Shown here one piece after another: positions 290-52,921 of a stretch of 53,746 nt of DNA. Every line of letters starts with the position of its first letter. Position 1 is the first letter of the stretch. The DNA is taken from assembly GCA_963575745.1 (NCBI GenBank), contig CAUYUJ010000289.1, forward strand, positions 62,001 through 115,746, read 5' to 3'. The translations under genes and the position numbers were made by a program. The DNA comes from Prorocentrum cordatum. Lineage: Eukaryota. The notes beneath the pieces were generated by a model that saw nothing but the letters and a program-made list of their open reading frames with translations, ran no database searches and was not told the origin of the DNA.

Positions 290-25356
<25,067 letters not shown>

Positions 25357-25709
25357 GTAATTTACTGCTGCGGGCGGTGGTGGTGTATAGAAATTGGCCT
25401 CGCATTCCAGGTGGGGTCCGAGGACCGTGGCGCATCGCCGACGCACCGGCGATGCGGCTCGATGTGGAGCCCGATTTCCTCCACGCTGGCGTCGCCGATG
25501 CACCGCCGACGTCGCCGATGCATCGCCGATGCATCGGCGATGCACCGCCGATTCATCGGCGATGCGGCGCGGTCCTCCGACCCCATCTGTTCCGACCCCA
25601 CCTGGGGGCCTCTAGTCATTCGGCACGCCCCGACAGCCCTGGAGAGCCCGCACGGGTCCTTGGACCAGGTGGGCACGTGGCCGTAAGCCCGAGGCACAGC
25701 GGAGGCTGC

Positions 25710-28700
25710 CGGTGTTCACACGTTTTGATCTCTTGGTGGCGGGCATGAAGTGCATCCGTTGGATCCGCCATCAATCTTTGAGATCAAATTCAGTGTGGAT
25801 GAAGACATTCTTAAAATCATGCCCAAAAATCTTGTGACATTTAAGAAGGAAACGAAAAAAATAACGATCGATGCGTGCTTCAGCGCGATGAGCCATCGAT
25901 TGAGAGTCATTTTTTATTCTTTGTCCTGTTTTTCAAGAAAAGATTGCTGGACTATGAGAACAGTTAGTAGAACATAAAAATAAAAAAAAGAACATTCGAT
26001 TGATGATCTACGAACTGATGTTCATCATCAATCAAGTTCGTTTTATTTTTTCTGTTCAAGCTTTTTCCCATTTTGTTTCCTGTGAACTTTCCTTGACAGG
26101 GAAAGAAAGAGAGAGAGAGAGAGAGAGAACGGCCAACGCCTGATGGCGGAAATGAAATCTCTTGGCCGCTCATCTTCTCTCTCCGTCGTTCACAGGAAAA
26201 GAACAAACATCCATGAATGTCGTCCATCTGCTGCAGATGAATCGTGTTTTTTGGTTATATATTATATATATTTTATGATTGTTATTGTTATTGTTATTGT
26301 TATTATTAGTTTATCTTTAAGAACTATTATTATCACTGCCCCAGCAGTTGCAAATGATTGGTCATCTGCAGCTGGAGGAAGTAAGGTTCATGAGAGGATT
26401 TCTTTTCATTCGTTTTCAATGTATGATTCTGTATTAGGTCTTAACTCCTTTACGGTCATCTCTTAAAGAAAAGGGAAGCGTTTGCTGGTGGCAAGGCCTT
26501 GAGGCCCAAGCGAAGCTAACCAACAAACGATTGTTTCCCTTTCAAGAGATGTTCGAGCAAAGGAATAACATTTTTACATAAGTTATGGAAGAATAACCAT
26601 GCCGCCTTTCTTATTCAAAAGACAGTTTGATAGAAGTTAAAAAGAGAAGTACGAGCAAGCTGATGAAGAGCACATTTCCCTTTCATGTTCTTTTTTTTGT
26701 TTTTTTTTCACTTGCTCTCATCTTCTTTTCTTTTACATTTACATATTATTATTGAAAATCAAAGAGATGGAACGATAAACTTACAACACAAAATATAATA
26801 ACCAAGAAAGGACATGCTTATGTTTGATTCAATTTTCCTCTTCTCTCTTTCATCCTTATGATCATTTTGTCTTCTCCAAAGTAAAATGATTGAAAACTTA
26901 TTTCTTTTAGAATGTTACCATTCGAGACGTTTTCGTTCTATTTTTTTTTTGTTTTTCGGTTTATTGTATCATTATGAAAACCGGACAAGGAATTCACACC
27001 ATTTGCTTTTTTGTTTTCATTTAGTGTCCTCCTGTTGTACGAGCTGTTGGCAAGGTTCTTTGGGACCCAGCTTCAGGCTGACCAACAGCTCAAACAAATA
27101 ATTTTGCAAACCCGCACAAATGATGTCACCGAGGGTCTTCTCTCTTATGAGGAGCCTATCTGCGGACAGTCGAAGATGGTTGACTTTGCCATTGCAGGCT
27201 CTTATTAAATAGAGAATGGGACCTTCGGTCGATCCTTTGCATATTGCTGGCGTAGTGTGCTGGCCTTAGGCCTTAAGCACGCCAACGCAAGGGACCATAT
27301 GGTATCTTCATTTACACAAAAGAGGAAATAACTGGTGGAAATGAAAACCAGGACTTTAGGGCCCAAGGCTGATGCCATCTCCTGGCCATTATGAACAAAA
27401 GGAAGAAAGAACACTGATAGATTTCCGGAATAAATCTTTCAAACTCATTTTTATTTTTCTTTCTTTCTGATTTGGCCACGGGCCGTCTTTAGGATTTCAT
27501 TTTTTAATGAAAAATTATCTGCTGACCAGTCTCAAGGAAAGAAAGCGAATAAAGGCCAGCAGATAGTGAAAAGAAGAGCTCCTTACGGATCTCAACTCCT
27601 TTGCAGAATTCGTTCTCCGATGCGGCCAGGGCATCAATCAAGATAATGCATTTCAAGGCGAATGGTGGTCATGCGGTCCAAATTCTCTCTTCTTTGATCG
27701 GGGCTCACGATTTTTTTTTCTTGTTTTTAGAAAGTGAGCCCCCAAAGAAAGAGAGAAAATACATCATGATGAAACATGAAATGGAAGGTCTCCTCCAATC
27801 TCGACTCCACCATTTTTTTTTATTATTTTTTTTTGAACAAGAAAGTTTAACTGGGAACCGAGGGGGATCTTACTTCTTATATTTATGATGTCCTTCCTTT
27901 GGGTCCGTCTTCATTCCTGCTGTTCCTTCTTCTTTTTAAAGAAGAAGGCAGGGCTGAAAGACAAGACCAAATTAATAAAAACAGCATCGTTTTCTTATAC
28001 ATAAAGAAGTTACATGTTTATTGCCTCCTTGCTACTTTCTGGAATGAATTCTCACTTTTCTTTATTGTATGTCGTAAGAACTCTTCAAGCGATTGAAGAG
28101 GGATTTCTATCTTTATTAGAAGTTATTTCTTTCTTGCATCGATGAGACACTAGTTCAATCGCTAGTAAAAAAGGAGTGTTAATAATCATGTGGGCTGCAA
28201 ACTTACCTTCTCGTTTCCTTTCATTGATTGGTAGCTTCGGTCCTTCATGACCCATCTTCATATGACCATCATTGAACAAAAAGGAAACTACGATCGTGGG
28301 GAAGATTGGGCTCCCCACCGGATTATTAATCAAGAGGCCTCCGGTGGCGTTAACTTCTCATCTTTCCGAATAAAGGAAATGATTGCAAACGAGACTGCTG
28401 CAGCATATTGCGATCTTTTCTTCGGGTCCTTTTTTTTGCCAAAGAAAATTGTAATGCCAGCGGCCATCGGTCGCTAGTTTCTTTTTCCTACTATTTCATC
28501 TGGTGGCTTACATCGACACGATTGGTACGAGGCCGAGTCAGCAGAAGAGAAGATGAATATGTGCCACCAATCAATTGTTGTGGGCAGACATAGCTTCGTG
28601 GATGACCGCAATACAGAACAATACTTGTATTAAGCGGTCATCAGTAACGAAGCTGTTTTCCTTCGTCTTTCTATTCGGGGGCCGTGAATGGTTGACCGCC

Positions 28701-28778
28701 GAGAACAAAGACGAGTATGGGCACGGAATTAGGACTAACCGCTGAACTATGTTTCTTTTGTTATTGTTGGCGGTTAAC
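25710..28778 (+). other. AT-rich hairpin-array island, segment 1 (candidate mitochondrial-DNA insertion or structured ncRNA locus)
   Basis: Abrupt drop in GC; no credible ORF; consecutive imperfect inverted repeats with loops cgtgc-TTCA-gcgcg (25879), gaac-TGAT-gttc (26016), cgcc-TGAT-ggcg (26141), ggcc-TTGA-ggcc (26499), gacc-TTCG-gtc (~27223), ggc-TGAT-gcc (~27370). Confidence 0.75.
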
Positions 28779-30387
28779 TTTTTCCCAACCCTCCTGCGTT
28801 GGGTTCTCGTTTTGAATAGAGCACTGCTCGCGCCTTCCTTCCCGCCCCCCCCCCGTCCCTCTCTTCCCCCCTGCCTTCGCTCGTCGCCGCGTGCCGCCTG
28901 GGGGGCTGCGATCTGTGAAACTGACGCCACTTTCGAGGCCTGCTGGGGGGCCCAGCACAGTGGGTACACACGGCGGACTCAAATGAGACCTCGCCATCCC
29001 TGGGGGGCTGCGATCTGTGAAACTGTCGCCACTTTCGAGGCCTGCTGGGGGGCCCAGCACAGTGGCACACGGCGGACTCAAATTAGACCTCGCCATCCCT
29101 GGGGGGCTGCGATCTGTGAAACTGTCGCCACTTTCGAGGCCTGCTGGGGGGCCCAGCACAGTGGGTACCCACGGCGGACTCAAATGGGACCTCGCCATCC
29201 CTGGGGGGCTGCGATCTGTGAAACTGTCGCCACTTTCGAGGCCTGCTGGGGGGCCCAGCACAGTGGGTACCCACGGCGGACTCAAATTAGACCTCGCCAT
29301 CCCTGGGGGGCTGCGATCTGTGAAACTGTCGCCACTTTCGAGGCCTGCTGGGGGGGCTAACACAGTGGGTACACACGGCGGGCCCGAATGGGACCTCGCC
29401 ATCCTTGGGGGGCTGCGATCTGTGAAACTGTCGCCACTTTCGAGGCTTGCTGGGAGGCCCAGCGCAATGGGTACCCACGGCGGATTCAAATGGGGCCTCG
29501 CCATCTCTGGGGGGCTGCGATCTGTGAAACTATCGCCACTTTCGAGGCCTGCTGGGGGGCCCAGCACAGTGGGTACACACGGCGGACTCAAATGAGACCT
29601 CGCCATCCCTGGGGGGCTGCGATCTGTGAAACTGTCGCCATTTTCGAGGCCTGCTGGGGGACCCAACACAGTGGGTACTCACCGCAGATTCAAATTAGAC
29701 CTCGCCATCCCTGGGGGGCTGCGATCTGTGAAACTGTCGCCATTTTCGGGGCTTGCTGAGGGGCCCAACGCGGTGGGTACCCACCGCAGGCTCAAATTAG
29801 ACATCGCCATCCCTGGGGGGCTGCGATCTGTGAAACTGTCGCCGCTTTCGAGGCCTGCTGGGGGGCCCAGCGCAGTGGATACCCACCGCACACTCAAATT
29901 AGACCTCGCCACCCCTGGGGGGCTGCGATCTGTGAAACTGTCGCCGCTTTCGAGGGTTGCTGAGGGGCACAGCACAGTGGGTATTCACCGCGGATCCAAA
30001 CGGGACCTCGCCGTCCTTGGGGGGCTGCGATCTGCGAAACTGTCGCCACTTTCGAGGGTTGCTGAGGGGCGCAGCACAGTGGGTACCCACCGCAGACTCA
30101 AACTAGACGCCGCTTTCGTCCTTGTTCTCCTCCTGCAGTCACCTTCCCTCTGCTGCAGCCGTGCTGATGGTTCGGCATCCCGCACGTTTTTCTCTTGGTC
30201 TGTGTTCCCGATTCCCCATGTCTTCTTCGAGCCTGTAGCTGTCGCCCCTCGTTCTTGTATGGTTCTCCTGCGCATCATGCCATAGGCGCGTGTCCCAAGT
30301 AGCTTACACATCAAGTTGATTGTCCATGCAAGGTTCGGCTAACTCCTCGTTTCCATTGGCACAAATGGGTTAGGTACAGGGTAATTT
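28779..30387 (+). mobile_element. Non-autonomous Helentron/DINE-like element with central 102-bp tandem array and captured unique fragment
   Basis: Starts TTTTT-CCCAACCCTCCTGCGTTGGG-TTCTCGTTTTGAATAGAG (5' stem-loop), then a pyrimidine tract, the tandem array and unique 30107-30360; ends GGGTTAGGTACAGGGTAA-TTT. Termini are shared with 32767-37114. Confidence 0.55.
28895..30105. repeat. Tandem satellite, ~102-bp unit, ~12 copies (variant A)
   Basis: Repeating cctcgccatccctggggggctgcgatctgtgaaactgtcgccactttcgaggcctgctggggggcccagcacagtgggtacccacggcggactcaaat. Confidence 0.95.
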
Positions 30388-30924
30388 CCTTCCCCGCGCG
30401 CGTTTCATTCTCTTGCGTTAACAAGAAAGAGGTGGAAAGAAAACAAGACAATGTTGGAACACGCTTGGGGCAGAAGTGTGGGCGTATGTTGTGCACATGA
30501 AAGAAGAGCTCCGCATGAGCTTCAAGCTCGAGCTTTTCTGGCGCTGCAAGTAAGATGCCCACGGGAAGGCATCGTATTATTGTCTCTTCTTGAGGAAAGT
30601 CCATTCTCTTTCATAGTAGTTTTTTTTTGTTTGTGTAAATGACAGTTTACTATAAAGAAAGGCGGTGGTAACATTTTCTAGAAGAGGCAGAACATGACAT
30701 GCATTTCCAAGGTTCATTTTGATGGATCAAACATAAAAGGAATTCGTGGCTCCTCAGCATGTTTTTTTTGTTTCTCCTGCAGCGGGGCTAATTCCTGTTT
30801 ATGTTTTGACCTTGAAGGAACCGTTTTCTTCTTATGACCTTCGTTTCGGTCTCTTTTCTTGAGAGAACGCGGCAGAGCAGAGAAAATAGGGGGCGACGGG
30901 CCCGTGAGAAGAACGCAAAGCCAT

Positions 30925-31018
<94 letters not shown>

Positions 31019-32056
31019 CAAGGGCTTCCATTTTTGCTAGATGGAAGCAAGCTTAAACTAAAACAAAAGTGGGAGTTCGTAAAGATGTACAATAAAGAAT
31101 AATAGTGATGACACGTTAATCTTAAACAAGCACTTGTTTCCATGATTTTTTTCAGTAGAATGGATCTTCGGTTCATTATATATATAGATATCTTTTAACA
31201 CATCCCCAAACCCATAACCTAAGATAGTACATGTTATTGATGGGCGATCGAAGAGACAGTAATAAACGATCGTCCACCACCTTTTTTTGTATGTTATTCT
31301 AGTTTGTAAAAATGAAAAAAAGGAAATTGCTGGAACAGGAAGAATCAAGCCTCGCGACCCACTGATTGATGGCCAGCCGTGGGCTTCAACCTGCGGTTGA
31401 CCATCAATCAGTCGTGAGGCTATTTTCTTTACAACGAATGAAAACGCGTTTTTAATCTTCACAGGGGGCCATCCGTCTCTTAGTCTTTCTCAGGGGAACA
31501 TTGAGACGGAAGTGGTGCATTCTAGAAGTTGTGAACTAAGTGTGTTTTTTATACAAACATTTTCTTTTCCAATTATTGAGCTTATATATTGAGCAGCAAT
31601 TGCAAATTTAGAAATGCAAGGAAAGAGCTGTTTAGCATGCCTAATTGATGTAGAAATTGTTCATTTTAAGTTTATTTGTCAGCACTATCAATCTTAATTA
31701 AGTAGAAATGAATTTCATGAACGGGTTAATTTCCGATATTTCTGTCTCCAATCTAAAAATGGAACTCCTGGGGCACGCGCGTGAAAGAAGGGGGAAACAA
31801 GGTGCGCCCAAAGGGTGAAGAGAAACGGCTGATGCCGGGAGAAGGAAAGGAAACCAATTTCAAACTCATCTTCGAGCACCTTATTGCGGTCAAGGGCGTG
31901 AGGCCCCAACATCAGTTGCTGACCGCAAGTGCTCGTAAAGCATGGGTTTGTTGATTTCGTTTTCTACCAGCCGCCACTAATGACCAAAACATAACAAACG
32001 TTTGTTGATGGCGAGCTGATGCTCAATCTTTCAGGACCATGCCATCAATTGATAAC

Positions 32057-32115
<59 letters not shown>

Positions 32116-32766
32116 CTTCCGCAGGCGGTTGATGCTCCATCGTGAGAGAGCTTACTTGTCAGCCTTAAGCTGGCGCTCTCTCATCATCGATGGAAGTTTC
32201 CTTTCATGAGGGCGTTCGCTTCGATCTCTTCTGTGGCATTCAAGAAAGAGAAAGAATACGCGCCGCAGTTCAGAGGCGAAGCGCGCCTTCATAATGAAAG
32301 GGACGAAATCAACCCTTCTCCCGATCACGAAAGACATATAGAACGAGCCGTATTAACTGCCTCAGCCGTTGCTCGTTCTTTTCTTTCACTTGGTCGGGAA
32401 AGGGGGGATTGATTTGATGGCGCGCCAGTCTCTGTCCTTATGGCCAATAATAATTTCTTCCACTTTTTAACTATATGGTCATGCGAATGAAAAGGGCGAG
32501 TGACGTGCCATCCTATGTTATTTCTCTTCTTTGGTCCGGTCTTTGGGCAGGCTTCATCTTTTCTTCAATGTTGGTCATCTTAAGATGAGCGCGTTGAAAT
32601 AAGGAACGAGAATGAAGACCTGCCCTGCATACGGACCAGGGGAAGGACAATAACAACAAACTCGTCCTCGGCTCTCATCTCACTTTCTCTTTTATTAATA
32701 ATTGGTTAAATCTGGAGCTGGTGTTCAACAGCTTATTACAGAGAAAATAGAGCCGAAGGGCAATGA
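30385..32766 (+). other. AT-rich hairpin-array island, segment 2
   Basis: Same architecture: stems at ~31348-31421 (aagcctcgcgac..ctgattgatgg/ccatcaatcag..gtcgtgaggct), gagc-TGAT-gctc (~32017), ~32201-32300, ~32307-32416, tcatc-TTAA-gatga (~32580). Confidence 0.75.
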
Positions 32767-32859
32767 TTTTTCCCAACCCTCCTTGGTTGGGGATTCGTTT
32801 TGAATAGAGGGGTGTGGTCGCGTCCTCCTTCTCCCGCCTCCCGCCTCCGTCTTGTCTCC

Positions 32860-33921
32860 TCTCGCCATCCCTGGGGGGCTGCGATTTGTGAAACTGTCGC
32901 CACTTTCGAGGGCTGCTGGGGAGGCCAGCAGAGAGGGTACTCACCGCGGATCCAAACGGGACCTCGCCGCCCCTGGGGGGTTGCGATCTGCGAAACTGTC
33001 GCCACTTTCGAGGGCTGCTGGGGAGGCCAGCAGAGAGGGTACTCACCGCGGATCCAAACGGGACCTCGCCGTCCCTGGGGGGCTGCGATCTGTGACGCTG
33101 TCGCCACTTTCGAGGGCTGCTGGGGAGGCCAGCAGAGATGGTACCACCGCGGATCCAAACGGGACCTCGCCGTCCCTGGGGGGCTGCGATCTGTGAAACT
33201 GTCGCCACTTTCGAGGGCTGCTGGGGAGGCCAGCAGAGAGGGTACTCACCGCGGATCCAAACGGGACCTCGCCGTCCCTGGGGGGCTGCGATCTGTGAAA
33301 CTGTCGCCACTTTCGAGGGCTGCTGGGGGGCCAGCAGAGAGGGCACTCACCGCGGATCCAAACGGGACCTCGCCGTCCTTGGGGGGCTGCGATCTGCGAA
33401 ACTGTCGCCACTTTCGAGGGCTGCTGGGGGGCCAGCAGAGGGGTGTCGCCGTCCCTGGGGGCTGCGATCTGTGGGAAGGCTCACTTCGCCACTTTCGAGG
33501 GCTGCTGGGGAGGCCAGCAGAGAGGGCACTCACCGCGGATCCAAACGGGACCTCGCCGTCCCTGGGGGGCTGCGATCTGTGAAACTGTCGCCACTTTCGA
33601 GGGCTGCTGGGGAGGCAAGCAGAGAGGGTACTCACCGCGGATCCAAACGGGACCTCGCCGTCCCTGGGGGGCTGCGATTTGCGAAACTGTCGCCACTTTC
33701 GAGGGCTGCTGGGGAGGCCAGCAGAGAGGGTACTCACCGCGGATCCAAACAGGACCTGGCCATCCTTGGGGGGCTGCGATATGCGAAACCGTCGCCACTT
33801 TCGAGGGCTGCTGGGGAGGCCAGCAGAGAGGGCACTCACCGCGGATCCAAACGGGACCTCGCCGTCCCTGGGGGGCTGCGATTTGCGAAACTGTCGCCAC
33901 TTTCGAGGGCTGCTGGTGGGT
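32860..33921. repeat. Tandem satellite, ~102-bp unit, ~10 copies (variant B)
   Basis: Same core (gggctgcgatctgtgaaactgtcgccactttcgagg) with variable part gaggccagcagagagggtactcaccgcggatccaaacggg; units start near 32863, 32965 and 33067. Confidence 0.95.
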
Positions 33922-33935
33922 CCTGCGGAGTGAGG

Positions 33936-35470
33936 TTTTTTTCACTGTGTGCGAACGCCAAGCAAAACTCTGCAAGCAGGTTCAAACTTCGCGGCATGAA
34001 AAATGAGGCTAACTGCATAAGTCTGCCTAGCCAGCGTGCGCCTGCAGGGCCGATACGATCGGCAGGAGCCTTGTAGCCTCTACCGGGACCAACCGCGACG
34101 CTGCACTCAAAACGGGTGCCACTAGCCACGGCTCTTCCCGCAGCTGTCTAATTACCTCACCTCCGTCGGAAAAGCGGCTGAGCAACCTGAGGTCAGAGAC
34201 CGAGAGCGCCTTCGCACCCTCGTCAAAACTCGAGCCGGAAAAATGCTGCCCAGAAAAAGCCGAAACTTCCACCTCACCCGAAAGAGCGCTCATAGCCATC
34301 TGATCGGAGGGCGCCTCAACCGAAGGAGGCAGCCCCAAACCAGCGTCAACGGACACTCCTGGGCAAGCCTCGGAAAGAGGCTCAGCCAAAATGGCCGCTG
34401 AAAGGCGAACCTCATCAGACGGAGGCTCAGCCAAAAAGGAATCCACAAGAGTAGGGCGAGCCTCAACAGTTGGAGGCTCAGCCAAACCAGCACTTGAGGA
34501 GACCACTGAGGGAGATATTGCAGAAGCGGCTTCAACGACAGACGAGCGAGCCTCATCAGAGGGAGGCTCAGCCAAGAATGCTTTTGAAACCACATCTTCA
34601 TGCACAGCAGCGGCTTCAGCGACAGACGAGCGAGCCTCATCAGAGGGAGGCTCAGCCAAGAATGCGTTTGAACCCACATCATATTTCTCCCTCTTCTTGT
34701 GTTTTCTTTTACGGCGCACGCGCTCGCCGATAAAGAAATTCAAGGCCTTGGCGTCCTCCTCGGCGGGATGCGGGGAATGCGGACTGGTGGAGGCGGCGGC
34801 GGCAGCACCTGCACCACAGAGCTGGTCGGTGCAGCACTTGCTGGCGGGGGTGCTGGCGGCCACTCCTTCAAGCCCGCCTTGGCCTCCTCCGAGCGGACAT
34901 CCTTGTTCTTCTTCTTGTGCTTGCGCTTCCGAGGGCGCTTGGCCTCTGCCACCGCTGGAGCCGGAGGCGGCGTCGGGATCTTCAGGCAAGCCCTCGGAGC
35001 GTCCTGAGACTCCGGAGGAAGCGAGAATACCTCCTTCGCTACCGGCGGTGTCGGGGACCTCGTACTGGCACCGTCGCACTTCTCCTTCAAAGCCGGGGCC
35101 ACAGGCGGAGCCGACGCCTCCTTCTGGTTGACCTGCAAACGGTCCCATCTCCTCAGGCGTTTTATTGGCTGCACCTCCTCCTCCTCCGGCTTCAGCGGCA
35201 GGGAATCCTGCCCCGGAATCTGCATGCCCTTGCTGAACTCCATGTCCACCACATCGACCAGGCTCCAAATCCCTGGCGGCGGTAACGGGGGGGGCAGCCG
35301 TAGACAGAGCCTCCTGCGAAAACGACGATCTCGAGCTCATCGTTGGAAACTCCGAAGCACTGAGTGAAAGCACTAATACGGTCTCCTAGTGAGGTGCCCA
35401 GCAAATCAACCGGCACAAAAAAGCGCATGGACGGGGCCTTGAGCCGGGGTGGCTTGAGCCAGGCTACGGA
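33936..35470 (-). pseudogene. Processed retrocopy of a spliced-leader trans-spliced mRNA (intronless, frameshifted; product with RKRKHKK basic motifs and LAEPP repeats)
   Basis: Minus strand begins TCCGTAGCCTGGCTCAAG CCACCCCGGCTCAAG GCCCCGTCC ATG (ATG at 35428), ends in A7 (T run 33936-33942), and is flanked by direct repeat CCTGCGGAGTGAGG at 33922-33935 and 35471-35484. The coding sequence appears to pass through three frames and stops at 34027. Confidence 0.85.
35438..35470 (-). other. Dinoflagellate spliced leader (DinoSL) remnant plus tandem relict SL
   Basis: 35470-35453 TCCGTAGCC----TGGCTCAAG versus canonical DCCGTAGCCATTTTGGCTCAAG (ATTT deleted); 35452-35438 CCACCCCGGCTCAAG versus canonical 15-nt relict CCATTTTGGCTCAAG. 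Confidence 0.85.
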
Positions 35471-36990
35471 CCTGCGGAGTGAGGCGCCGCGCGGACCTGA
35501 GCGGGACCTCGCCGTCCATGGGGGGCTGCGATCTGCGAAACTGTCGCCACTTTCGAGGGCTGCTGGTGGGTCCTGCGGGGTGAGGCACCGCGCGGGCCTG
35601 AGCGGGACCTCGCCGTCCCTGGGGCTGCGATCTGCGAAGCTGTCGCCACTTTCGAGGGCTGCTGGTGGGTCCTGCGGAGTGAGGCGCCGCGCGGACCTGA
35701 GCGGGACCTCGCCGTCCCTGGGGGGCTGCGATCCGCGAGACTGTCGCCACTTTCGAGGGCTGCTGGTGGGTCCTGCGGAGTGAGGCGCCGCGCGGAACTG
35801 AGCGGGACGTCGCCGTCCCTGGGGGGCTGCGATCTGTGAAACTGTCGCCAGTTTCGAGGGCTGCTGGTGGGTCTTGCGGAGTGAGGCACCGCGCGGACCT
35901 GAGCCCGACCTCGCCGTGCCTGGGGGGCTGCGATCTGCGAACCTGTCGCCACTTTCGAGGGCTGCTGGTGGGTCCTGCGGAGTGAGGCACCGCGCGGGCC
36001 TGAGCGGGACCTCGCCGTCCCTGGGGGCTGCGATCTGCGAAACTGTCGCCACTTTCGAGGGCTGCTGGTGGGTCCTGCGGAGTGAGGCACCGCGCGGACC
36101 TGAGCGGGACCTCGCCGTCCCTGGGGGGCTGCGATCTGCGAAACTGTCGCCTTTTTCGAGGGCTGCTGATGGGTCCTGCGGAATGAGGCGCCGCGCGGAC
36201 CTGAGCGGGTCCTCGCCGTCCCTGGGGGGATGCGATCTGCGAAACTGTCGCCACTTTCGAGGGCGGCTGGTGGGTCCTGCGGAGTGAGGCACCGCGCGGA
36301 CCTGAGCGGGACCTCGCCGTCCCTGGTGGGGCTGCGATCTGAGCGAAACTGTCGCCACTTTCAGGGCTGCTGGTGGGTCCTGCGGAGTGAGGCACCGCGC
36401 GGACCTGAGCGGGACCTCGCCGTGCCTGGGGGGCTGCGATCTGCGAAACTGTCGCCACTTTCGAGGGCTGCTGGTGGGTCCTGCGGAGTGAGGCACCGCG
36501 CGGACCTGAGCGGGACCTCGCCGTCCCAGGGGGCTGCGATCTGCGAAGCTGTCGCCACTTTCGAGGGCTGCTGGTGGGTCCTGCGGAGTGAGGCACCGCG
36601 CGGCCTGAGCGGACCTCGCCGTCCCTGCGATCTGCGAAGTGTGCGCCACTTTCGAGGCTGCTGAAACTCGTCCCTGGGGGGTTGCGATCTGCGAAACTGT
36701 CGCCACTTTCGAGGGCTGCTGGTGGGTCCTGCGAAGTGAGGCACCGCGCGGACCTGAGCGGGACCTCGCCGTCCCTGGGGGGTTGCGATCTGCGAAACTG
36801 TCGCCACTTTCGAGGGCTGCTGGTGGGTCCTGTGGGGTTAGGCACCGCGCGGATCTGAGCGGGAACTCGCCGTCCCTGGGGGGCTGCGATCTGCGAAACT
36901 GTCGCCACTTTCGAGGGCTGCTGGTGGGTCCAGCGGGGCGAGGCACCACGCAGATCTGAGCGGGACATCGCAATCCTTGGGGGGCTGCGA
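35471..36990. repeat. Tandem satellite, ~101-102-bp unit, ~15 copies (variant C)
   Basis: Same core with variable part tgggtcctgcggagtgaggcaccgcgcggacctgagcggg. Confidence 0.95.
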
Positions 36991-37110
36991 GCCTCACGAA
37001 TGCCGCTCGCAGAAGTACATGCGCCCATGTCACGTCATCATCTCCGTATAACGAGTCCCAATCTACTCATGCCCCGCATTGCGCAGGGGTTGGGTACGTC
37101 GCCAGGGTAA

Positions 37111-38700
37111 TTTTCTTTCTAGTGAAGCGCGAGCTCTTTCTTAGGATCGGTGGTGATGACGAACCCAAGCTCTCGCCTGTTATGGGCTCGTCCACCGATC
37201 CAAGGATATGAGCTCACAACTTCCAAGACAGGATCGGCTGATAAACAGCCATTATTATGCCAGCGATCCAAACGAGAACAAGTGATCGATGGAATGATGA
37301 CTGTCCGCCAATCGAAGGAAAAAAGGGTTTTCTTAAGAACCTAAAGATAACACATGAAAAAGATGATGAACGGCTGTTAAAACCTTCCCCTTTCTTTTTC
37401 ATTACAATCTGCTGTCAATTACATTCTCCCTCATAATCAAGTAAAGCTTTTTCATTTAAGTTTTAATGCGAGGGGGGATTTTGAAGTTGACCGCAGAGAA
37501 TGGAAACACAACTGGACCAGCAGCTTACAGACGGCTATTGTTCCTTTTCTTAGTGTGGTCACACATAATAAATTAAAGTGCGAGTGGCCACCGAGAAATA
37601 ATAGCCGTCAGTTGATAGCTGAATATGATCCACCCTTGGTCCTTTCTTTCCGTCATACAAAGAGAAAAAAACGAACAGCAGTGCGAATGAAAGAGTTGAT
37701 GATGCACAACTGTGCTTAAGCACGCATCAACCTTTTCATTCTCTTTCTTTTACGTGTTCTCTTAATAAAGGAAAGAAAGAAAGGGACCACGGAGAAGACT
37801 GCAGGACCTTCAATCAATCCTGGCGTTATCAAAGAAAATGTGCGTGCTTCAGCACCAATCAAAGCTTGCATTTTCTTTAGCACCAGAGATTGTTGAGTCC
37901 TGAAGGTCTTCTTTCATTTCTTTACAAAAAAGTTCATCTTTGAGTCCTTTCCATTTTCTCTCTTGTGCGCTCTTGAGATCCAGCCAGTCATTAAACAGAC
38001 ACAATATTGGATTTGAGCTCACAGAAGAAAGAAATTCATGAAAGGACCAAAGGGGCTCTCCCTAAGAAGTGAATGATTATCGGACCGAAGAACATGTCTC
38101 ATTTATTCCCTTATGTAATCTCATGCTTTCTCTTGAGAGAACATATGAATGAAATGAGATTAATATATATATATATATACACATATTAGTTCCAGAAGGC
38201 CCGCCAGTCGTTAACGGTTAACCGCTTCGCTCTTCCTTTCTTGTGGTGGGTTCATAACAGCTGCTGCTGACCCGCCATCACAACGAAGGAAAGAAGAGCC
38301 AAAGCGTGGTAACGTTAACCGTTAACAGCCTGCTGCTTACTACGGAGGTCTTGTGAACTCATTTTCTTCTCTTCATTGATCTGCTGTCTTCGATGGCATC
38401 ATTCATTAAGCTGAGGCTTAAGCCATCGAATTATGACAGCAGGTCGTAGAGAAGAAAGTGATTTCAAATGCTGAGCCAAAGAGCTCTAGTTTGATGGTCA
38501 ATCGAAGATTGAAGCTGAAGCTCATGCCATCAAACGAGAGAGAGAGAGCTCTTCTCCAAGGCCAGCATTTTTGAATCACTTCCTCATTTTAGTTGAAGGA
38601 AACAATCTCTGGCACAGGAGTTTCTGTCTTTTCATAATAAACTCAGAACTAATTCCTTGAAGAAAAGTATAAGCATTTTTTGTTCAAGAAAAAAACAGAA
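37111..38700 (+). other. AT-rich hairpin-array island, segment 3
   Basis: Same architecture: ggatcggtgg/ccaccgatcc (~37144-37201), gacggctatt/aatagccgtc (~37529-37609), gtgc-TTAA-gcac (~37716), gtgc-TTCA-gcac (~37848), tctc-TTGA-gaga (~38133), gttaacggttaac/gttaaccgttaac (~38210-38326), aagc-TGAG-gctt (~38413), agc-TGAA-gct (~38516). Confidence 0.75.
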
Positions 38701-39068
38701 GGATTCCTTAACCCCCACCCTGACTCGCGATGAGTGAATTGTCCGTGTTCGGTTCTTTCCAGGCTTTCGCCCGCGAGGTTTGGGCCCGAGGTCGTTTTCA
38801 CTAAACCACGTTTTTCTAAAGGGGGTTCTGTCCATCCCCGAGAATCCAGGCCAGCGGCCTTGAAAAGCGGCGTCTTGTGCCGACTTACAGGCCAGAGAGC
38901 AGGTCTCCTCTTCCCGTCCTGCGTGTCGGCACTCTGCTGCGTGCTGCGGCTTGGTGGCCCTCGTCCGAGGTGTGGGCATGCCCTCCCCGCCCACGGCTGC
39001 CGCGCCTCCCCGGCCCGCCTCCCGGGCGGGGGTGGGGACGAAGCCCGCGCGCGCGCTCGGGCGCCCAG

Positions 39069-39204: not shown

Positions 39205-40534
39205 GCGTGAGTGTTCATTCCCCACGTTTGTCCTCGATTAGGGGGCCTCATGCGAACCCTGCCCCTACCCCCCACGTTTTCTGAGGGGGAGGGGTAGGGT
39301 TCGCATGTGGCCCCCTATCGATTTTGGCCCGTGGAGCCCCTTCCTGGCCAAACAGCCATGGATCCGGGATCCGGGACAAAAGACTGCCCCTCAAGGGACG
39401 AAAACATATCGTCGGGCGTCTGGGTTTGGGCGTAGTCATCTGGCCCGGGGCGTCCAGGGTATTTCCAGAGGCTCTAGGCCTCCTAGATGGGGTCCGAGTA
39501 GATGGGGTCGGAGGATCGCGCCGCATCGCCCGTGAATCGGCGATGCGGCTCGATGTGGAGCCCGATTTTTCCCACGCTGGCGTCGCGGATGCGTCGCCGA
39601 CGTCGCCGATGCATCGCCGATGCATCGCCGATGCATCGCCGATGCGGCGCGATCCGTCGACCCCACCCAGTCGGATGCCATCTGGGAGGCCTCTATTTTC
39701 AGAGGCCCCCGACCAGAGTTTTTTGCTTTGTTTGCGCGTCTCGCCCGCTCATCCCCGATCTTTCAGGAGTATGGGGAAATATGGGAAAATATGGGGAATC
39801 TTTTTATTAGTGTGTATTTATTTAATCGCTTCGCTCATGCCGCCGGCCCTGGAGCCCTCTTTAGGGCCTCTTGGGGGCCTCTTGGGGACCTCTTGGGAGT
39901 CTCTTGGGGCTCCTTGGCGGCGTTTTGGAGGCCCCCAGGGCCTCTTGGGGGGCTCTTGGGGGTAGTCGATTGCGGCTCCCCCCTCGGAGGCCACGATCCT
40001 CGTGAGGGGTGTCGAAAAATACCCTCCCCTGGAGTGGTCTGGTGGCTTCTCCCGGGCTTCTCTCGGGACCTTGCCGGGGTACTTTTCGTCCGGGGGCCCC
40101 CAGGGGCCGCTCCGCGCGCGCGAACTAGAAATATTGTTAACAAGTTACCGGAGATCTTAGCACGCCTCTGGCCCGTTGGGCCGGCGAATTTGTGTGTCCT
40201 GGGGCTCCTTTAATCTTGTCCCGAGTGCCCAGCCTTCCCTATATAGAAATGCGGTTTTGCGATCGGGGACCTGTCGCCGAGCTATATCGGCGAGGCGTCG
40301 TCGCGATGGCAGGCAGGGCGTGTGCCTCCTGAGGCGTCTCACCCCTTCGGCCTCCCTCCTTTCGAGGAAGCAGAAGAGCGCCACGAACGTAACTTTTCGG
40401 CGCTCCGCGCGGATTTCCTGGATCCGCTCCGGGGCCCCCCTGGCGGCGCCTCCGGCGCCGCCCCCCTGGTGCGCTCCGCAACATGGGGAGGGGGGTCCAG
40501 CGCGTATGCAAGAAATCCGCGCGGACCGTCGAAC

Positions 40535-40679
<145 letters not shown>

Positions 40680-41527
40680 TTGTTCTTCCTCTAATGTCAG
40701 CAGGGTGGCATCATTCAACATCGAGAGCGTGCAGCATCGAAAGTCCAAGGCTTCCAGCGTCTGGCAAGAGTCAGGACGGCTTGCTTCTCCGATTTGTTAT
40801 TGAGGCTTGTTTCGAGCCCTGGGGCCTGCCGAACATTGCCCACGGCGCGAAAATCATGCGGCCGAAATGGTCGAGTGCACTTAAGCATCGAACGAGTTTT
40901 GGAAGTATATTTGAGGCTGCTTGGAGGCAGATCGATCCTCTCTTAGGACTTGTTTGGGGATCTTGGGGGCCTTCTTGGGGCAGTCTTGGACGCCACGTCC
41001 ATCGGCCCCCGGAAGACACCGAACTCGAGGCGCACACCGGCATCAAACGGCTCCAGAAGTGCCCCAAACACTGAAACAGGTCGCAAGAAGGGTCTCGACA
41101 GGGCTCCAACGGGGCGTCAAGAGCACCCCAAAAGAGCTTCAAAGGGTCCGAAGAGGAATCCCAATCCTCGAATCCCAACCCTCGAATCCAATGTGTTCTC
41201 TCGCTCCGCTGATGCACTTCGGCGCACCGTGACACAGATGCTCAGCCCGCCTGGGACTTGCCTAACCCAGGGGTGAGCTCGGTGGCTTAACCTGCTCGAG
41301 CCAAACCCCTCGAATCCGAGGCTCCGCCCAACATGGGTTTTCATCCGTGGTCTGTCCTTCTGTCCGCGGCTGGCCAGGGCGACCACCACGCCAAAGTATT
41401 CGTAACCCCCAGTCCACAGACGAGGGGGGAAGTGCTGCGGCACGAGGGCCCACGACCGAGACCACGACGACGACGACGACGCCGACGACGACGAGGATGA
41501 CGACGACGACGACGACGACGACGATGT

Positions 41528-41602
<75 letters not shown>

Positions 41603-42727
41603 CTCGCCCGCTCTCCGCGGGGGTGAGGGATCAGTTTGGAAGGGCTGGCAGCTTAGGCCGCCTACGCCCACAGGGCTGGCGGGACCACTCGCAACGGAGG
41701 GTGGTGCGATACTGCGATGATGACTCTGGAAATGGTTACTTACCCTGATCAGCAGATCCTTCCATAAGACCTAGTGTTCATGTTCGTGCCTGACCTGGTC
41801 GATGGTGGGTTGAGTTCAATGCGCCCAAGGTCTACCCCACCCGCGACCCCGAGTGGCTTGCCGCCTTGCGAGTCGAGCTCCTGCGGCTCAGCGAGGCGTG
41901 CGCGTGGCAGTACTGCGTGGCCTGCATGTGCTTGCTTGCCTCGGAGTTGCCGCCAGGCGCCCCAGAGGGCCTTGCTCCGATGGATGAGGATCCGCAGAAG
42001 GCAGTCTGAATGTAGGAGGACGATTAAGAACTGCCGTGGGGGAGAAACGCCACTCGAATAACAAGCTACCAAAACAGAAGCTTTCGGAGGTCTGCGCGGA
42101 TTTCTTGGATCGGCGTTGGACCCCCCTGGCGGCCCGGCGGCGCCTCTGGCGCCGCCCCCGGAGGGTTCTAGCGCAGATGCAAGAAATTCGTGGGGACTTC
42201 CGAAAGTTTATGTCTGTGTAGTGTTCTCTTCCTCTAGATTGAGAGCTGCCTGCCGAGGGCGTCACGCAGAAGAGCTCGGGGCGATGATTGATACATTGAG
42301 ATCCAGGCCCGCTCTTGACGGTTCCATCCAGAACTTCTCATAGCGGCAACCAACTATTTGTTGGACCGCTCCCCCTGGGGTTGAGTTCTTAGTCGTCATC
42401 CTACAATTGAAACCCATGCCAAGAAAGACCCTGCTTGCCTCCAGGGTGCCCTGGGGTTCTCGGGTTTCGACGGTTCTGCTATGGAAACGCCACGCTCCCA
42501 CACCAAAAATCAATGGGCGTCCTGGGGTCTGAGGGTTAGGTTTCTTGTGGAAGGTTTCTCGTGGGCGAGCTCTTGCTGTACATCACCCGATGGTCCGCGC
42601 AGATTTCTCGGGTCGGCGCTGGACCCCACTGGCGGGGTCTCTGCGCCAGGGGCGCGTGCCTGGCGCCTGCCCCAGAGGTCCGCGCGGACTTCCGAGTGCT
42701 GATGCTCGCGCTGCCGCTCTTGTTTTT

Positions 42728-42885: not shown

Positions 42886-43058
42886 CAGTTTTGTTCTCCC
42901 CGTGTGCGCCGCCATGCCTGGCCATGGCCACCCCGGGCCCTGCGGCAGGGCGGGCGCACGGCAGGTTCGTGTCGCGCGCCGACCGGCGGCGACCCCGCCG
43001 CCGGCGTTCAGAGTTGATCCCCGCTGGGGACCCAGAATCGGTCGGTGTTGACGAACTA

Positions 43059-43208
43059 GGGGGCCACATGCGAACCCTACCCCTACCCCCCACGATTTCT
43101 GAGGGGGAGGGTGGGGTTCACTCCGTTCGGGAGCTCCCGAGCAAAGTGAACCCCACCCTCCCCCTCAGAAATCGTGGGGGGTAGGGGTAGGGTTCGCATG
43201 CGGCCCCC
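43059..43208. mobile_element. Tc1/mariner-type (TA-flanked) palindromic MITE; short copy at 39241-39315
   Basis: TA|gggggccacatgcgaaccctaccccta...taggggtagggttcgcatgcggccccc|TA; both copies flanked by TA. Confidence 0.8.
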
Positions 43209-43576
43209 TACCGACGTTCCGGAAACGGCCGATCCTTCAAATCTGAACGACCCCGCGGTGTCGGGAAGCACCGCCGCGGTCGACACGACACGCGAACATG
43301 CCGTACAGAGCATCCTGGCCTCGGCCAGGAGGGCGTGTGCACCAGGCGAAGGCCCGGGGTGGCCCTGGCCCAGCTGTGGTTGTGGTGCCATGGTTCAGGA
43401 GGGGAAAAAACACACAGACACAATTAATCGTCGATTTACCCAGAAGATATGGGAAAATATGGGAAGTGGGGGGGAAGACAAAAACACCAAAAATATAGGA
43501 AAATATGGGGAATCTTTTTATTTGTGTGTATTTATTTGTGTGTCCCTGGGCCCCTTTAATGGTGCCCTCTGCGCAG

Positions 43577-52530: not shown

Positions 52531-52921
52531 TTCAGACGAGAGAGAGTGCACGCACCGTCCTCGCCGCGGAGCCCCGCCCCCCAGCCACGCACCCAGGGAC
52601 AGTGCATGCCCGCCCGGCCCCCTCGCTCCGATCATGGGCCGTTCGGGCCTCGCGAGGGCGGCGAGGATCTAGGCCCCTAAGATGGGGTCGCAACAGATGG
52701 GGTCGGAGGGTCGCGCCGCATCGCCGATGCATCGACGCTGCGGCTCGATGTGCAGCCCGATCTGCCCCACGTCGACGCCGCCGATGCATCGCCGACGCAT
52801 CGGCGATTCGGTGGCGACGCATCGCCGATGCATCGGCGATGCGGTGGCGATGCGGCGCAGTCCTTCGACCCCATGTAGTCGGACCCCATCCAGGAGGCCT
52901 CTGGTGCTCGGGCCCCGCGAG

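What the first reader, a model, noticed from the sequence alone, without database searches (positions are those of the whole stretch)
25727..38450. Stem mismatches are mostly G.T on the + strand, implying single-strand polarity
Seen in stems read by hand: ttggtggcgg/ccgccatcaa (~25732), cgtgc/gcgcg (25874), agccgtggg/cctgcggtt (~31375, three wobbles), gagggcg/cgccttc (~32208), gatca/tggtc (~32323), ctttggtccg/cggaccaggg (~32529), gtggtcac/gtggccac (~37555), gatctgctgtc/gacagcaggtc (~38378). These are G.T on + and would be A.C on -; only a few opposite cases were noted (~26485, ~31373, ~37163). A cruciform in duplex DNA would not favour one strand, so this suggests selection on folding of the + strand as RNA or ssDNA. 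The same polarity in all three segments supports one original block.
Basis: partly seen in the sequence, partly recalled or inferred. Interest (0 to 1): 0.7.

Follow-up and report, generated by a model that had tools for sequence, protein, structure and literature searches.

The report
Hairpin wobble bias, middle segment only
An AT-rich, gene-free island full of DNA hairpins shows the claimed one-strand G.T wobble excess only in its middle third, which may be read as a folded RNA, while the rest looks like ordinary decaying inverted repeats.

Summary
The hairpins are real: 30 score at least 10 in the three AT-rich segments, against about 1.7 in shuffles.

A strand-symmetric count does not support one polarity for the whole block.
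- Totals are 67 G.T: 41 A.C. The G+T-rich + strand predicts about 58% (p=0.44).
- Stricter scoring gives 20:19 and 15:15.
- Segment A (25.7-28.8 kb) is 20:16. Segment C (37.0-38.7 kb) is 15:19.

Only segment B (30.3-32.8 kb) is biased, at 32:6.
- All 10 of its hairpins fold better as + strand RNA.
- The bias survives dinucleotide shuffles (p=0.0025) and a non-cognate-arm control.
- It also exceeds the substitution spectrum of the adjacent satellites (p=0.0125).
- The free-energy asymmetry, however, is mostly compositional (z=-1.8).

Best reading: a hairpin-dense non-coding island, split by two related GC-rich insertions, that decays neutrally. B is possibly a + strand multi-hairpin transcript. 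No homologues or expression data could be obtained, so this stays inferred.

The parts
25727..28778 (.). AT-rich segment A (39% GC), ORF-free, 10 significant hairpins, no strand polarity
   Evidence: G.T:A.C is 20:16. RNA folding energy is better on + for 5 hairpins and on - for 5.
28779..30390 (+). GC-rich interruption 1. It starts with the shared 43-bp motif, carries about 12 copies of a 102-bp satellite (28897-30102), and ends with the shared GGGTTAGGTAC..CAGGGTAATTT motif.
30391..32766 (+). AT-rich segment B (43% GC), ORF-free, the only part with + strand G.T polarity
   Evidence: G.T:A.C is 32:6. All 10 hairpins are more stable as + RNA, -403.9 against -334.5 kcal/mol. p=0.0025 against shuffles. 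Non-cognate arms give 16:17. Fisher test against A+C gives p=0.0004.
30563..30806 (+). Two B hairpins (30563-30708 and 30729-30806); G.T:A.C is 8:1 and 2:0
30927..31018 (+). T72 run followed by A20
   Evidence: No target-site duplication was found.
31337..31429 (+).
31843..32070 (+). Two B hairpins (31843-31965 and 31986-32070)
32058..32115 (+). T58 run
32136..32655 (+). Five hairpins abutting with gaps of 0-3 nt: 32136-194, 32198-303, 32306-415, 32416-512 and 32516-655
   Evidence: For 32120-32660 the + RNA folds at -231.5 kcal/mol (z -10.3) and the - RNA at -191.2 (z -7.1). The shuffled means differ by only 14.9.
32767..37110 (+). GC-rich interruption 2. It has the same start and end motifs as interruption 1, with 101-102-bp satellite arrays at 32861-33916 and 35471-36990.
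37111..38710 (.). AT-rich segment C (42% GC), ORF-free, 10 significant hairpins, no net polarity
   Evidence: G.T:A.C is 15:19. The first four hairpins fold better on -, and of the last six, four fold better on + and two show no preference (within 1 kcal/mol).

Best explanation
The stretch from 25.7 to 38.7 kb is one AT-rich (39-43% GC), gene-free island of about 7.2 kb in a GC-rich, repeat-laden, eukaryote-like sequence. Two related GC-rich, satellite-bearing insertions cut it into three pieces.

The island is packed with imperfect inverted repeats of 50-190 nt. Most of them behave as DNA-level palindromes of the foldback or MITE-like kind. Their arms drift apart by transitions on either strand. 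G.T and A.C oppositions are then about equal once the slight G+T richness of the + strand is allowed for.

The middle piece B (30.4-32.8 kb) is the exception. Its 10-11 tiled hairpins carry about five G.T for every A.C. The most economical mechanism is that B is, or recently was, used as a single strand in + sense, most simply as a left-to-right transcript made of consecutive long hairpins. In such a transcript, C-to-U and A-to-G changes survive as G.U pairs, while the mirror changes break pairs and are removed.

Shown: the hairpins, their excess over chance, the counts per segment and the composition controls. Inferred: transcription, selection on pairing, the insertion history and the transposon-like origin of the other hairpins.
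For: - Hairpins are real: 30 observed against about 1.7 expected. z is -10.3 and -7.1 for 32120-32660.
- Hairpins are not special to the island. Another 55 lie elsewhere in the window (54 in the GC-rich flanks, 1 in GC-rich interruption 2). They include a TA-flanked foldback element with a second copy.
- There is no polarity outside B: A 20:16, C 15:19, left flank 96:68 against 90.3 expected, right flank 27:19 against 27.3 expected.
- B is 32:6. Both halves are biased (15:2 and 17:4). Seven of the 8 hairpins with any transition mismatch show G.T above A.C, and none shows the reverse.
- All 10 B hairpins are more stable as + RNA.
- B's bias exceeds the dinucleotide-shuffle expectation of 0.61 (p=0.0025) and the non-cognate-arm expectation of 16:17.
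- It also exceeds the 34:24 substitution spectrum of the flanking satellites (Fisher p=0.0125).
- The bias persists for mismatches flanked by Watson-Crick pairs: 19:4 and 12:2.
- Polarity signs cluster along the window: 27 runs against 35.9 expected, z=-2.17.
- Shared insertion termini are shown.
Against: - Most of B's free-energy advantage on + is reproduced by shuffled sequence: -92.9 observed against -68.3 +/- 13.7, z=-1.79.
- With strict stem definitions the counts in B are small: 9:3 and 5:4.
- With three flanking pairs required, B is 3:1.
- B was singled out after three segments were examined, so p-values need about a threefold correction.
- Heterogeneity among all hairpins is only marginal (p about 0.06).
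- The T72 and T58 runs inside B would be odd in a transcript. On the minus strand they read as long A tails.
- No Rfam family reaches threshold.
- No homologous locus was found, so covariation is untested.
- A B-specific mutational asymmetry cannot be excluded. Non-stem G+T in B is 0.517 +/- 0.012, which lies between no shift (0.50) and the roughly 0.535 that a purely mutational cause would predict (own arithmetic).
- The AT-island hairpins show no target-site duplications and no second copies in the window. Their transposon origin is therefore only by analogy.
Confidence: 0.45

Rival explanations
1. There is no single-strand function anywhere. All the hairpins are neutral DNA palindromes. The G.T excess, including that in B, comes from strand composition or a local strand-asymmetric mutation process (replication- or transcription-associated C>T and A>G), plus sampling noise after B was picked from three segments.
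For: - The pooled 67:41 matches the compositional expectation.
- Shuffles reproduce about three quarters of B's energy asymmetry.
- The + strand is G-rich over most of the window, with cumulative GC skew rising from 14 to 51 kb.
- The GC-rich left flank also shows 96:68.
- Satellite variants lean the same way, 34:24.
- Strict counts in B are 5:4 and 9:3.
Against: - B's 32:6 exceeds every compositional null tried: 0.61 by shuffles (p=0.0025) and 16:17 by non-cognate arms.
- It exceeds the neighbouring satellites' spectrum (p=0.0125) and A+C (p=0.0004).
- The non-stem composition of B is nearly symmetric.
- The contexts fit neither CpG deamination (TpG in 7 of 32) nor ADAR-type editing (5' G in 14 of 32).
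Confidence: 0.3
2. The whole interrupted block (A, B and C) is one unit selected to fold as a + strand RNA or single-stranded DNA.
For: - The quoted stems exist.
- The three segments share composition, hairpin density and the GATGR...YCATC stem motif.
- The pooled count against 0.5 gives p=0.016.
Against: - A is 20:16 and C is 15:19.
- In A the + strand advantage is smaller than composition predicts: -20.7 against -45.5 +/- 13.5.
- Five of 10 hairpins in A and four of 10 in C fold better on the minus strand.
- The first four hairpins of C all favour the minus strand.
Confidence: 0.05
3. Segment B acts as single-stranded DNA rather than RNA. Its hairpins would extrude on one strand during replication, rolling-circle copying or transposition, as with strand-specific hairpin sites of other mobile elements.
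For: - The polarity evidence is the same as for RNA.
- B is bounded on both sides by mobile-looking GC-rich elements.
- The stems share a short motif that could be a protein-binding site in a folded strand.
Against: - G.T is only weakly stabilising in DNA.
- No gene for a nicking or recombination enzyme is present. There is no Pfam hit in the 12 longest ORFs and no ORFs lie in the island.
- No terminal repeats or duplications bound B.
Confidence: 0.08
4. The island is a chromosomal landmark such as a centromere core or domain boundary, marked by an AT-rich trough with dyad symmetries. In that case the polarity in B is incidental.
For: - It is the only deep GC trough in 53.7 kb.
- It is unique sequence without genes.
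- It is dense in dyad symmetry.
- It is a target of insertions.
- AT-rich 3-5 kb centromere cores are known in GC-rich fungi (PMC7025860, abstract seen).
Against: - Nothing tests this. There is no chromosome context, no kinetochore data, and the organism is unknown.
- Hairpin density is only about 1.5-2 times that of the flanks.
- It does not explain a strand bias.
Confidence: 0.1

Closest known systems
Strand signature of structured RNAs (G.U pairs become A.C on the complement; RNAstrand, PMC1892782, passages read)
   Same: B shows the expected asymmetry: more G.T than A.C in stems, and lower folding energy on one strand.
   Different: RNAstrand relies on alignments of homologues, and here there is a single sequence. 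The paper itself warns that G.U counts are sensitive to errors in the predicted structure. Most of the energy asymmetry here is compositional.
MITE or foldback inverted-repeat elements, and hairpin RNA or miRNA genes born from them (PMC10004981 and PMC9641971, search listing and abstract openings only; PMC3495686, same)
   Same: The hairpins are 50-190 nt, imperfect and AT-rich. A clear TA-flanked foldback element with two copies lies in the same window. Stability is in the range quoted for plant precursors, about 1 kcal/mol per 100 nt per %GC (my arithmetic; the threshold itself is recalled, not from a call).
   Different: The island's hairpins have no visible target-site duplications and no second copies in the window. 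No small-RNA data are available. Rfam miRNA models score 23-29 bits against gathering scores of 62-211.
Polycistronic hairpin transcripts such as miRNA clusters and long hpRNA loci (recalled, no call)
   Same: Several long hairpins lie head to tail on one strand, including five abutting in 520 nt.
   Different: Known clusters have spacers and conserved mature arms. Here there is no evidence of processing, conservation or expression.
AT-rich centromere cores in GC-rich genomes, e.g. Malassezia (PMC7025860, abstract opening)
   Same: A GC trough of a few kb, gene-free and of unique sequence.
   Different: No functional data exist. A strand polarity of stem mismatches is not a known centromere property.
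RIP-mutated AT-rich blocks of fungi (recalled indices)
   Same: AT-rich islands in a GC-rich genome. RIP acts on repeats and can be strand-biased.
   Different: The RIP indices are not met. TpA/ApT is 0.61-0.66, where more than 0.89 is needed. (CpA+TpG)/(ApC+GpT) is 1.40-1.48, where less than 1.03 is needed.

Membership tests
Structured RNA read from the + strand | Folds much better than shuffled sequence | tested here: met
   For 32120-32660, z is -10.3 on +. The minus strand also gives z -7.1, so this alone does not separate RNA from a DNA palindrome.
Structured RNA read from the + strand | G.U in stems exceeds A.C beyond what composition gives | tested here: inconclusive
   Met in B: 32:6, p=0.0025, with non-cognate arms at 16:17. 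Not met in A (20:16) or C (15:19). The energy-based test for B gives z=-1.79.
Structured RNA read from the + strand | Compensatory changes in homologues | not testable with these tools
   No related locus was found. The metagenome scan returned 1 unrelated contig. The genome scans returned 0 and 1 chance match. The viral scan returned 0. No own genome is held.
Structured RNA read from the + strand | The transcript exists | not testable with these tools
   No sequencing run could be listed.
Known RNA family (Rfam 15) | Match at the gathering score | tested here: not met
   0 matches at gathering score over the window. The best sub-threshold scores are 21-29 bits against 62-211.
MITE or foldback transposon (island hairpins) | Terminal inverted repeats | tested here: met
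   Every hairpin is by construction an inverted repeat.
MITE or foldback transposon (island hairpins) | Flanking target-site duplication | tested here: not met
   No consistent direct repeats are visible in the 12-nt flanks of the 30 island hairpins, inspected by eye. The GC-rich element at 43057-43210 and its copy at 39234-39321 are TA-flanked.
MITE or foldback transposon (island hairpins) | Multiple copies in the genome | tested here: inconclusive
   There is no second copy within the 53.7-kb window. The genome is not available.
RIP-generated AT-rich block | TpA/ApT above 0.89 and (CpA+TpG)/(ApC+GpT) below 1.03 (thresholds recalled) | tested here: not met
   The values are 0.61-0.66 and 1.40-1.48.
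Organelle-derived insert (NUMT or NUPT) | Remnants of organelle genes, tRNAs or rRNAs | tested here: not met
   0 tRNAs and 0 Rfam hits. Under table 4, only short or low-complexity frames lie within the AT-rich island (none of the island frames was scanned against Pfam); the long frames listed run through the flanking GC-rich sequence and its 102-bp satellite arrays.

The most novel reading that the evidence does not exclude
Segment B (about 30.4-32.8 kb) is a + strand gene for a roughly 2.4-kb RNA built almost entirely of 10-11 consecutive long hairpins, five of them abutting without spacers. This would be a polycistronic hairpin-RNA or small-RNA precursor born inside an island of decaying inverted repeats. 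Its stems would be kept paired by selection that tolerates G.U, and the stems of the whole island share a GATGR...YCATC motif.
Probability: 0.3. Interest if true: 0.5.

Novelty: new member of a known kind. Interest (0 to 1): 0.3.

Why it matters
If B is a real + strand multi-hairpin transcript, it would be a clean single-sequence example of an RNA gene emerging from an island of inverted repeats, in an unidentified GC-rich eukaryote.

The method matters as well. Hand-picked wobbles overstate strand polarity. A detector that scores G.T and A.C equally, together with composition controls, removes the apparent signal from two thirds of the region.

If B's bias is mutational, the finding is ordinary.

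Tried and rejected
- Own genome: none is held.
- Sequencing runs: none was listed, and no RNA holder was listed, so expression is untested.
- Homologue hunt:
  - The satellite 22-mer gave 1 metagenome contig with no BLAST similarity to the window, and 0 in genome and viral contigs.
  - A two-arm pattern from a B hairpin gave 1 chance match in a bacterial MAG with no similarity.
- Rfam: nothing at gathering score. Only generic sub-threshold hairpin hits appeared.
- tRNAs: none.
- Coding: no Pfam family in the 12 longest frames. There are no meaningful frames in the island, even with TGA=W.
- RIP: indices not met.
- CpG-deamination origin of the wobbles: TpG in only 7 of 32.
- ADAR-type A>G: the 5' neighbour of the G is G in 14 of 32, which is the disfavoured context (the preference is recalled).
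- Retroposon reading of the T runs: no target-site duplications.
- Third copy of the insertion start motif at the right end of C: not convincing.
- Whole-segment folding with shuffles timed out twice. Only segment A finished. It was replaced by 250-nt windows.
- The source organism could not be identified.
Full report
**Setting**

The window is 53.7 kb at about 62% GC. It is crowded with trinucleotide arrays, satellites and dispersed short repeats.
- It has no tRNA and no Rfam match.
- None of its 12 longest frames has a Pfam family.
- CpG is not depleted: observed/expected is 0.7-1.06.
- It reads like non-coding DNA of a GC-rich eukaryote.
- No whole genome is held for it, and I could not identify the organism.

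Three AT-rich, ORF-free segments stand out:
- A, about 25.7-28.8 kb, 39% GC.
- B, about 30.4-32.8 kb, 43% GC.
- C, about 37.1-38.7 kb, 42% GC.

They are not similar to one another. The two GC-rich stretches between them begin with the same 43-bp motif and end with the same GGGTTRGGTAC...CAGGGTAATTT motif. Both carry arrays of one 101-102-bp satellite. Two related elements inserted into one AT-rich island is therefore a reasonable reading. It is inferred, since no target-site duplications were seen.

**Are the hairpins real?**

I wrote a hairpin aligner that scores G.T and A.C identically, so detection cannot favour a strand. At score 10 or more it finds 10 hairpins in each of A, B and C. Dinucleotide shuffles give 0.65, 0.70 and 0.35 (alignments).

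The 541 nt at 32120-32660 fold into five abutting hairpins. MFE is -231.5 kcal/mol and z is -10.3 on +. On the minus strand MFE is -191.2 and z is -7.1.

Hairpins are not confined to the island. The whole window holds 85 at this threshold, at 2-7 per 2.2 kb against fewer than 1 expected in most bins. They include a TA-flanked foldback element at 43057-43210 with a shorter copy at 39234-39321.

**Is the G.T excess real?**

| Method | A | B | C | Total |
|---|---|---|---|---|
| Symmetric aligner, threshold 10 | 20:16 | 32:6 | 15:19 | 67:41 |
| Threshold 9 | 23:21 | 35:9 | 15:20 | 73:50 |
| Threshold 12 | 6:8 | 23:5 | 12:14 | 41:27 |
| Uniform mismatch penalty | 2:6 | 9:3 | 9:10 | 20:19 |
| Ungapped strict stems | 5:7 | 5:4 | 5:4 | 15:15 |
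| 1x1/2x2 loops, fold without G.U, + strand | 6:6 | 12:4 | 7:6 | 25:16 |
| Same, minus-strand fold in + terms | 5:7 | 14:2 | 7:7 | 26:16 |

The + strand is slightly G+T-rich. Shuffles of each segment give G.T fractions of 0.577, 0.61 and 0.541 in the same detector. The pooled 67:41 is therefore unremarkable (p=0.44 against 0.58).

A and C show no polarity by any method. In A the + strand's energy advantage is smaller than composition predicts: -20.7 against -45.5 +/- 13.5 kcal/mol. 'The same polarity in all three segments' is not supported.

**Segment B**

B is different.
- All 10 hairpins fold better as + RNA, with sums of -403.9 against -334.5 kcal/mol. The split is 5/5 in A, 6/4 in C, 24/17 in the left flank and 5/7 in the right flank.
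- 32:6 departs from the shuffle expectation (p=0.0025).
- It departs from A+C (Fisher p=0.0004) and from all other hairpins of the window (p=0.0007).
- Pairing each 5' arm with non-cognate 3' arms of the same segment keeps the purine- and pyrimidine-tract composition. It gives 16:17.
- Variants among the 32 satellite copies flanking B lean only 34:24 towards G/T. That is significantly less than B's stems (p=0.0125). A regional mutational asymmetry of the needed strength is therefore not seen next door.
- The bias persists for mismatches flanked by Watson-Crick pairs: 19:4 with one flanking pair and 12:2 with two. It fades to 3:1 with three.
- Both halves of B are biased (15:2 and 17:4).
- Along the window the polarity signs cluster (27 runs against 35.9 expected, z=-2.17). 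B is the longest run.

Several results weaken the case for B.
- In 250-nt windows, B's + minus - energy difference is -92.9 kcal/mol. Shuffles already give -68.3 +/- 13.7 (z=-1.79). For 32120-32660 the difference is -40.3 against -14.9 in shuffles.
- Strict stem definitions leave few events.
- B was singled out among three segments.
- Heterogeneity over all hairpins is marginal (p about 0.06), and it is 0.23 without B.
- B contains T72 followed by A20, and T58. These are awkward in a transcript. On the minus strand they look like A tails, although no target-site duplications were found.
- Non-stem G+T in B is 0.517 +/- 0.012. That fits neither 'no mutational push' nor 'full mutational push' decisively.

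**What the wobbles look like**

In B, 21 of 32 have the G in the 3' arm. They sit mainly in purine tracts facing pyrimidine tracts.
- The T is followed by G in only 7 of 32, so CpG deamination is not the main source.
- The G is preceded by G in 14 of 32, which is unlike ADAR editing (the preference is recalled).
- RIP indices are not met.

**Interpretation**

The island is best seen as a hairpin-dense, non-coding AT-rich block whose inverted repeats mostly decay neutrally. The middle piece carries a genuine but modest + strand signature. The simplest cause is transcription of B in + sense with selection, or tolerance, for G.U in the stems. This is the principle used to orient structured RNAs (PMC1892782, passages read).

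A B-specific mutational asymmetry is the main rival. Single-stranded DNA use and a chromosomal-landmark role remain possible. None of these can be settled here, because no homologous locus and no sequencing run could be obtained.

**Novelty and score**

Inverted-repeat islands, MITE-like hairpins and hairpin-RNA loci born from them are known kinds (PMC10004981 and PMC9641971, listing and abstract openings only). At most this is a new member. Interest is modest at 0.3. The boldest reading not excluded is a 2.4-kb + strand multi-hairpin RNA gene, to which I give about 0.3 probability.

Noticed in passing
window 28779-30390 and 32767-37110: Two GC-rich blocks share a 43-bp start motif and a GGGTTRGGTAC..CAGGGTAATTT end motif, whose CCCAACCC and GGGTTGGG look like short inverted termini. 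Both carry arrays of one 101-102-bp satellite. They look like two copies of a satellite-bearing mobile element inserted in the same orientation. No target-site duplication was seen.
   Followed up: partly
window 43057-43210 and 39234-39321: A GC-rich foldback element with 71 Watson-Crick pairs and only 4 transition mismatches. It is flanked by TA on both sides, and a shorter TA-flanked copy lies 3.8 kb away. It is Stowaway-like (the family name is recalled).
   Followed up: partly
window 25700-38710 (e.g. 31368/31401, 32007/32042, 32416/32507, 38392/38422, 38493/38527): Many island hairpins share an apical stem motif, (T)TGATGR...YCATCA(A). GCCATC occurs 11 times on + against 1.0 expected, and its complement 5 times. 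All 6 TTGATGG in the window lie in the island. GATGR...YCATC pairs number 7, 4 and 2 against 1.3, 0.5 and 0.8 in shuffles.
   Followed up: partly
window 30927-31018, 32058-32115, 40536-40681: Very long homopolymers on the + strand: T72 followed by A20, T58 and T146. No flanking duplications were found.
   Followed up: partly
window 32136-32655 and 37634-38073: Hairpins abut with gaps of 0-3 nt. Five lie in a row in B and three in a row in C. This is tighter than independent insertions would give.
   Followed up: partly
window 8126-8303, 25408-25613, 39468-39692, 52663-52902: A dispersed repeat family of about 150-200 bp at 79-88% identity, itself internally palindromic. It flanks the island on both sides.
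   Followed up: no
whole window: TpA is strongly depleted everywhere (observed/expected 0.27-0.59), even in the AT-rich island, while CpG is near expectation (0.70-1.06). Cumulative GC skew rises steadily from about 14 to 51 kb.
   Followed up: no
window 3047-3198, 18497-18672, 42060-42225 (favouring +); 2510-2716, 21186-21250 (favouring -): Individual GC-rich hairpins outside the island show strong one-sided wobble counts (5:0, 9:2 and 8:2; 0:5 and 1:4). Their energy differences are 11-27 kcal/mol between strands, in both directions.
   Followed up: partly
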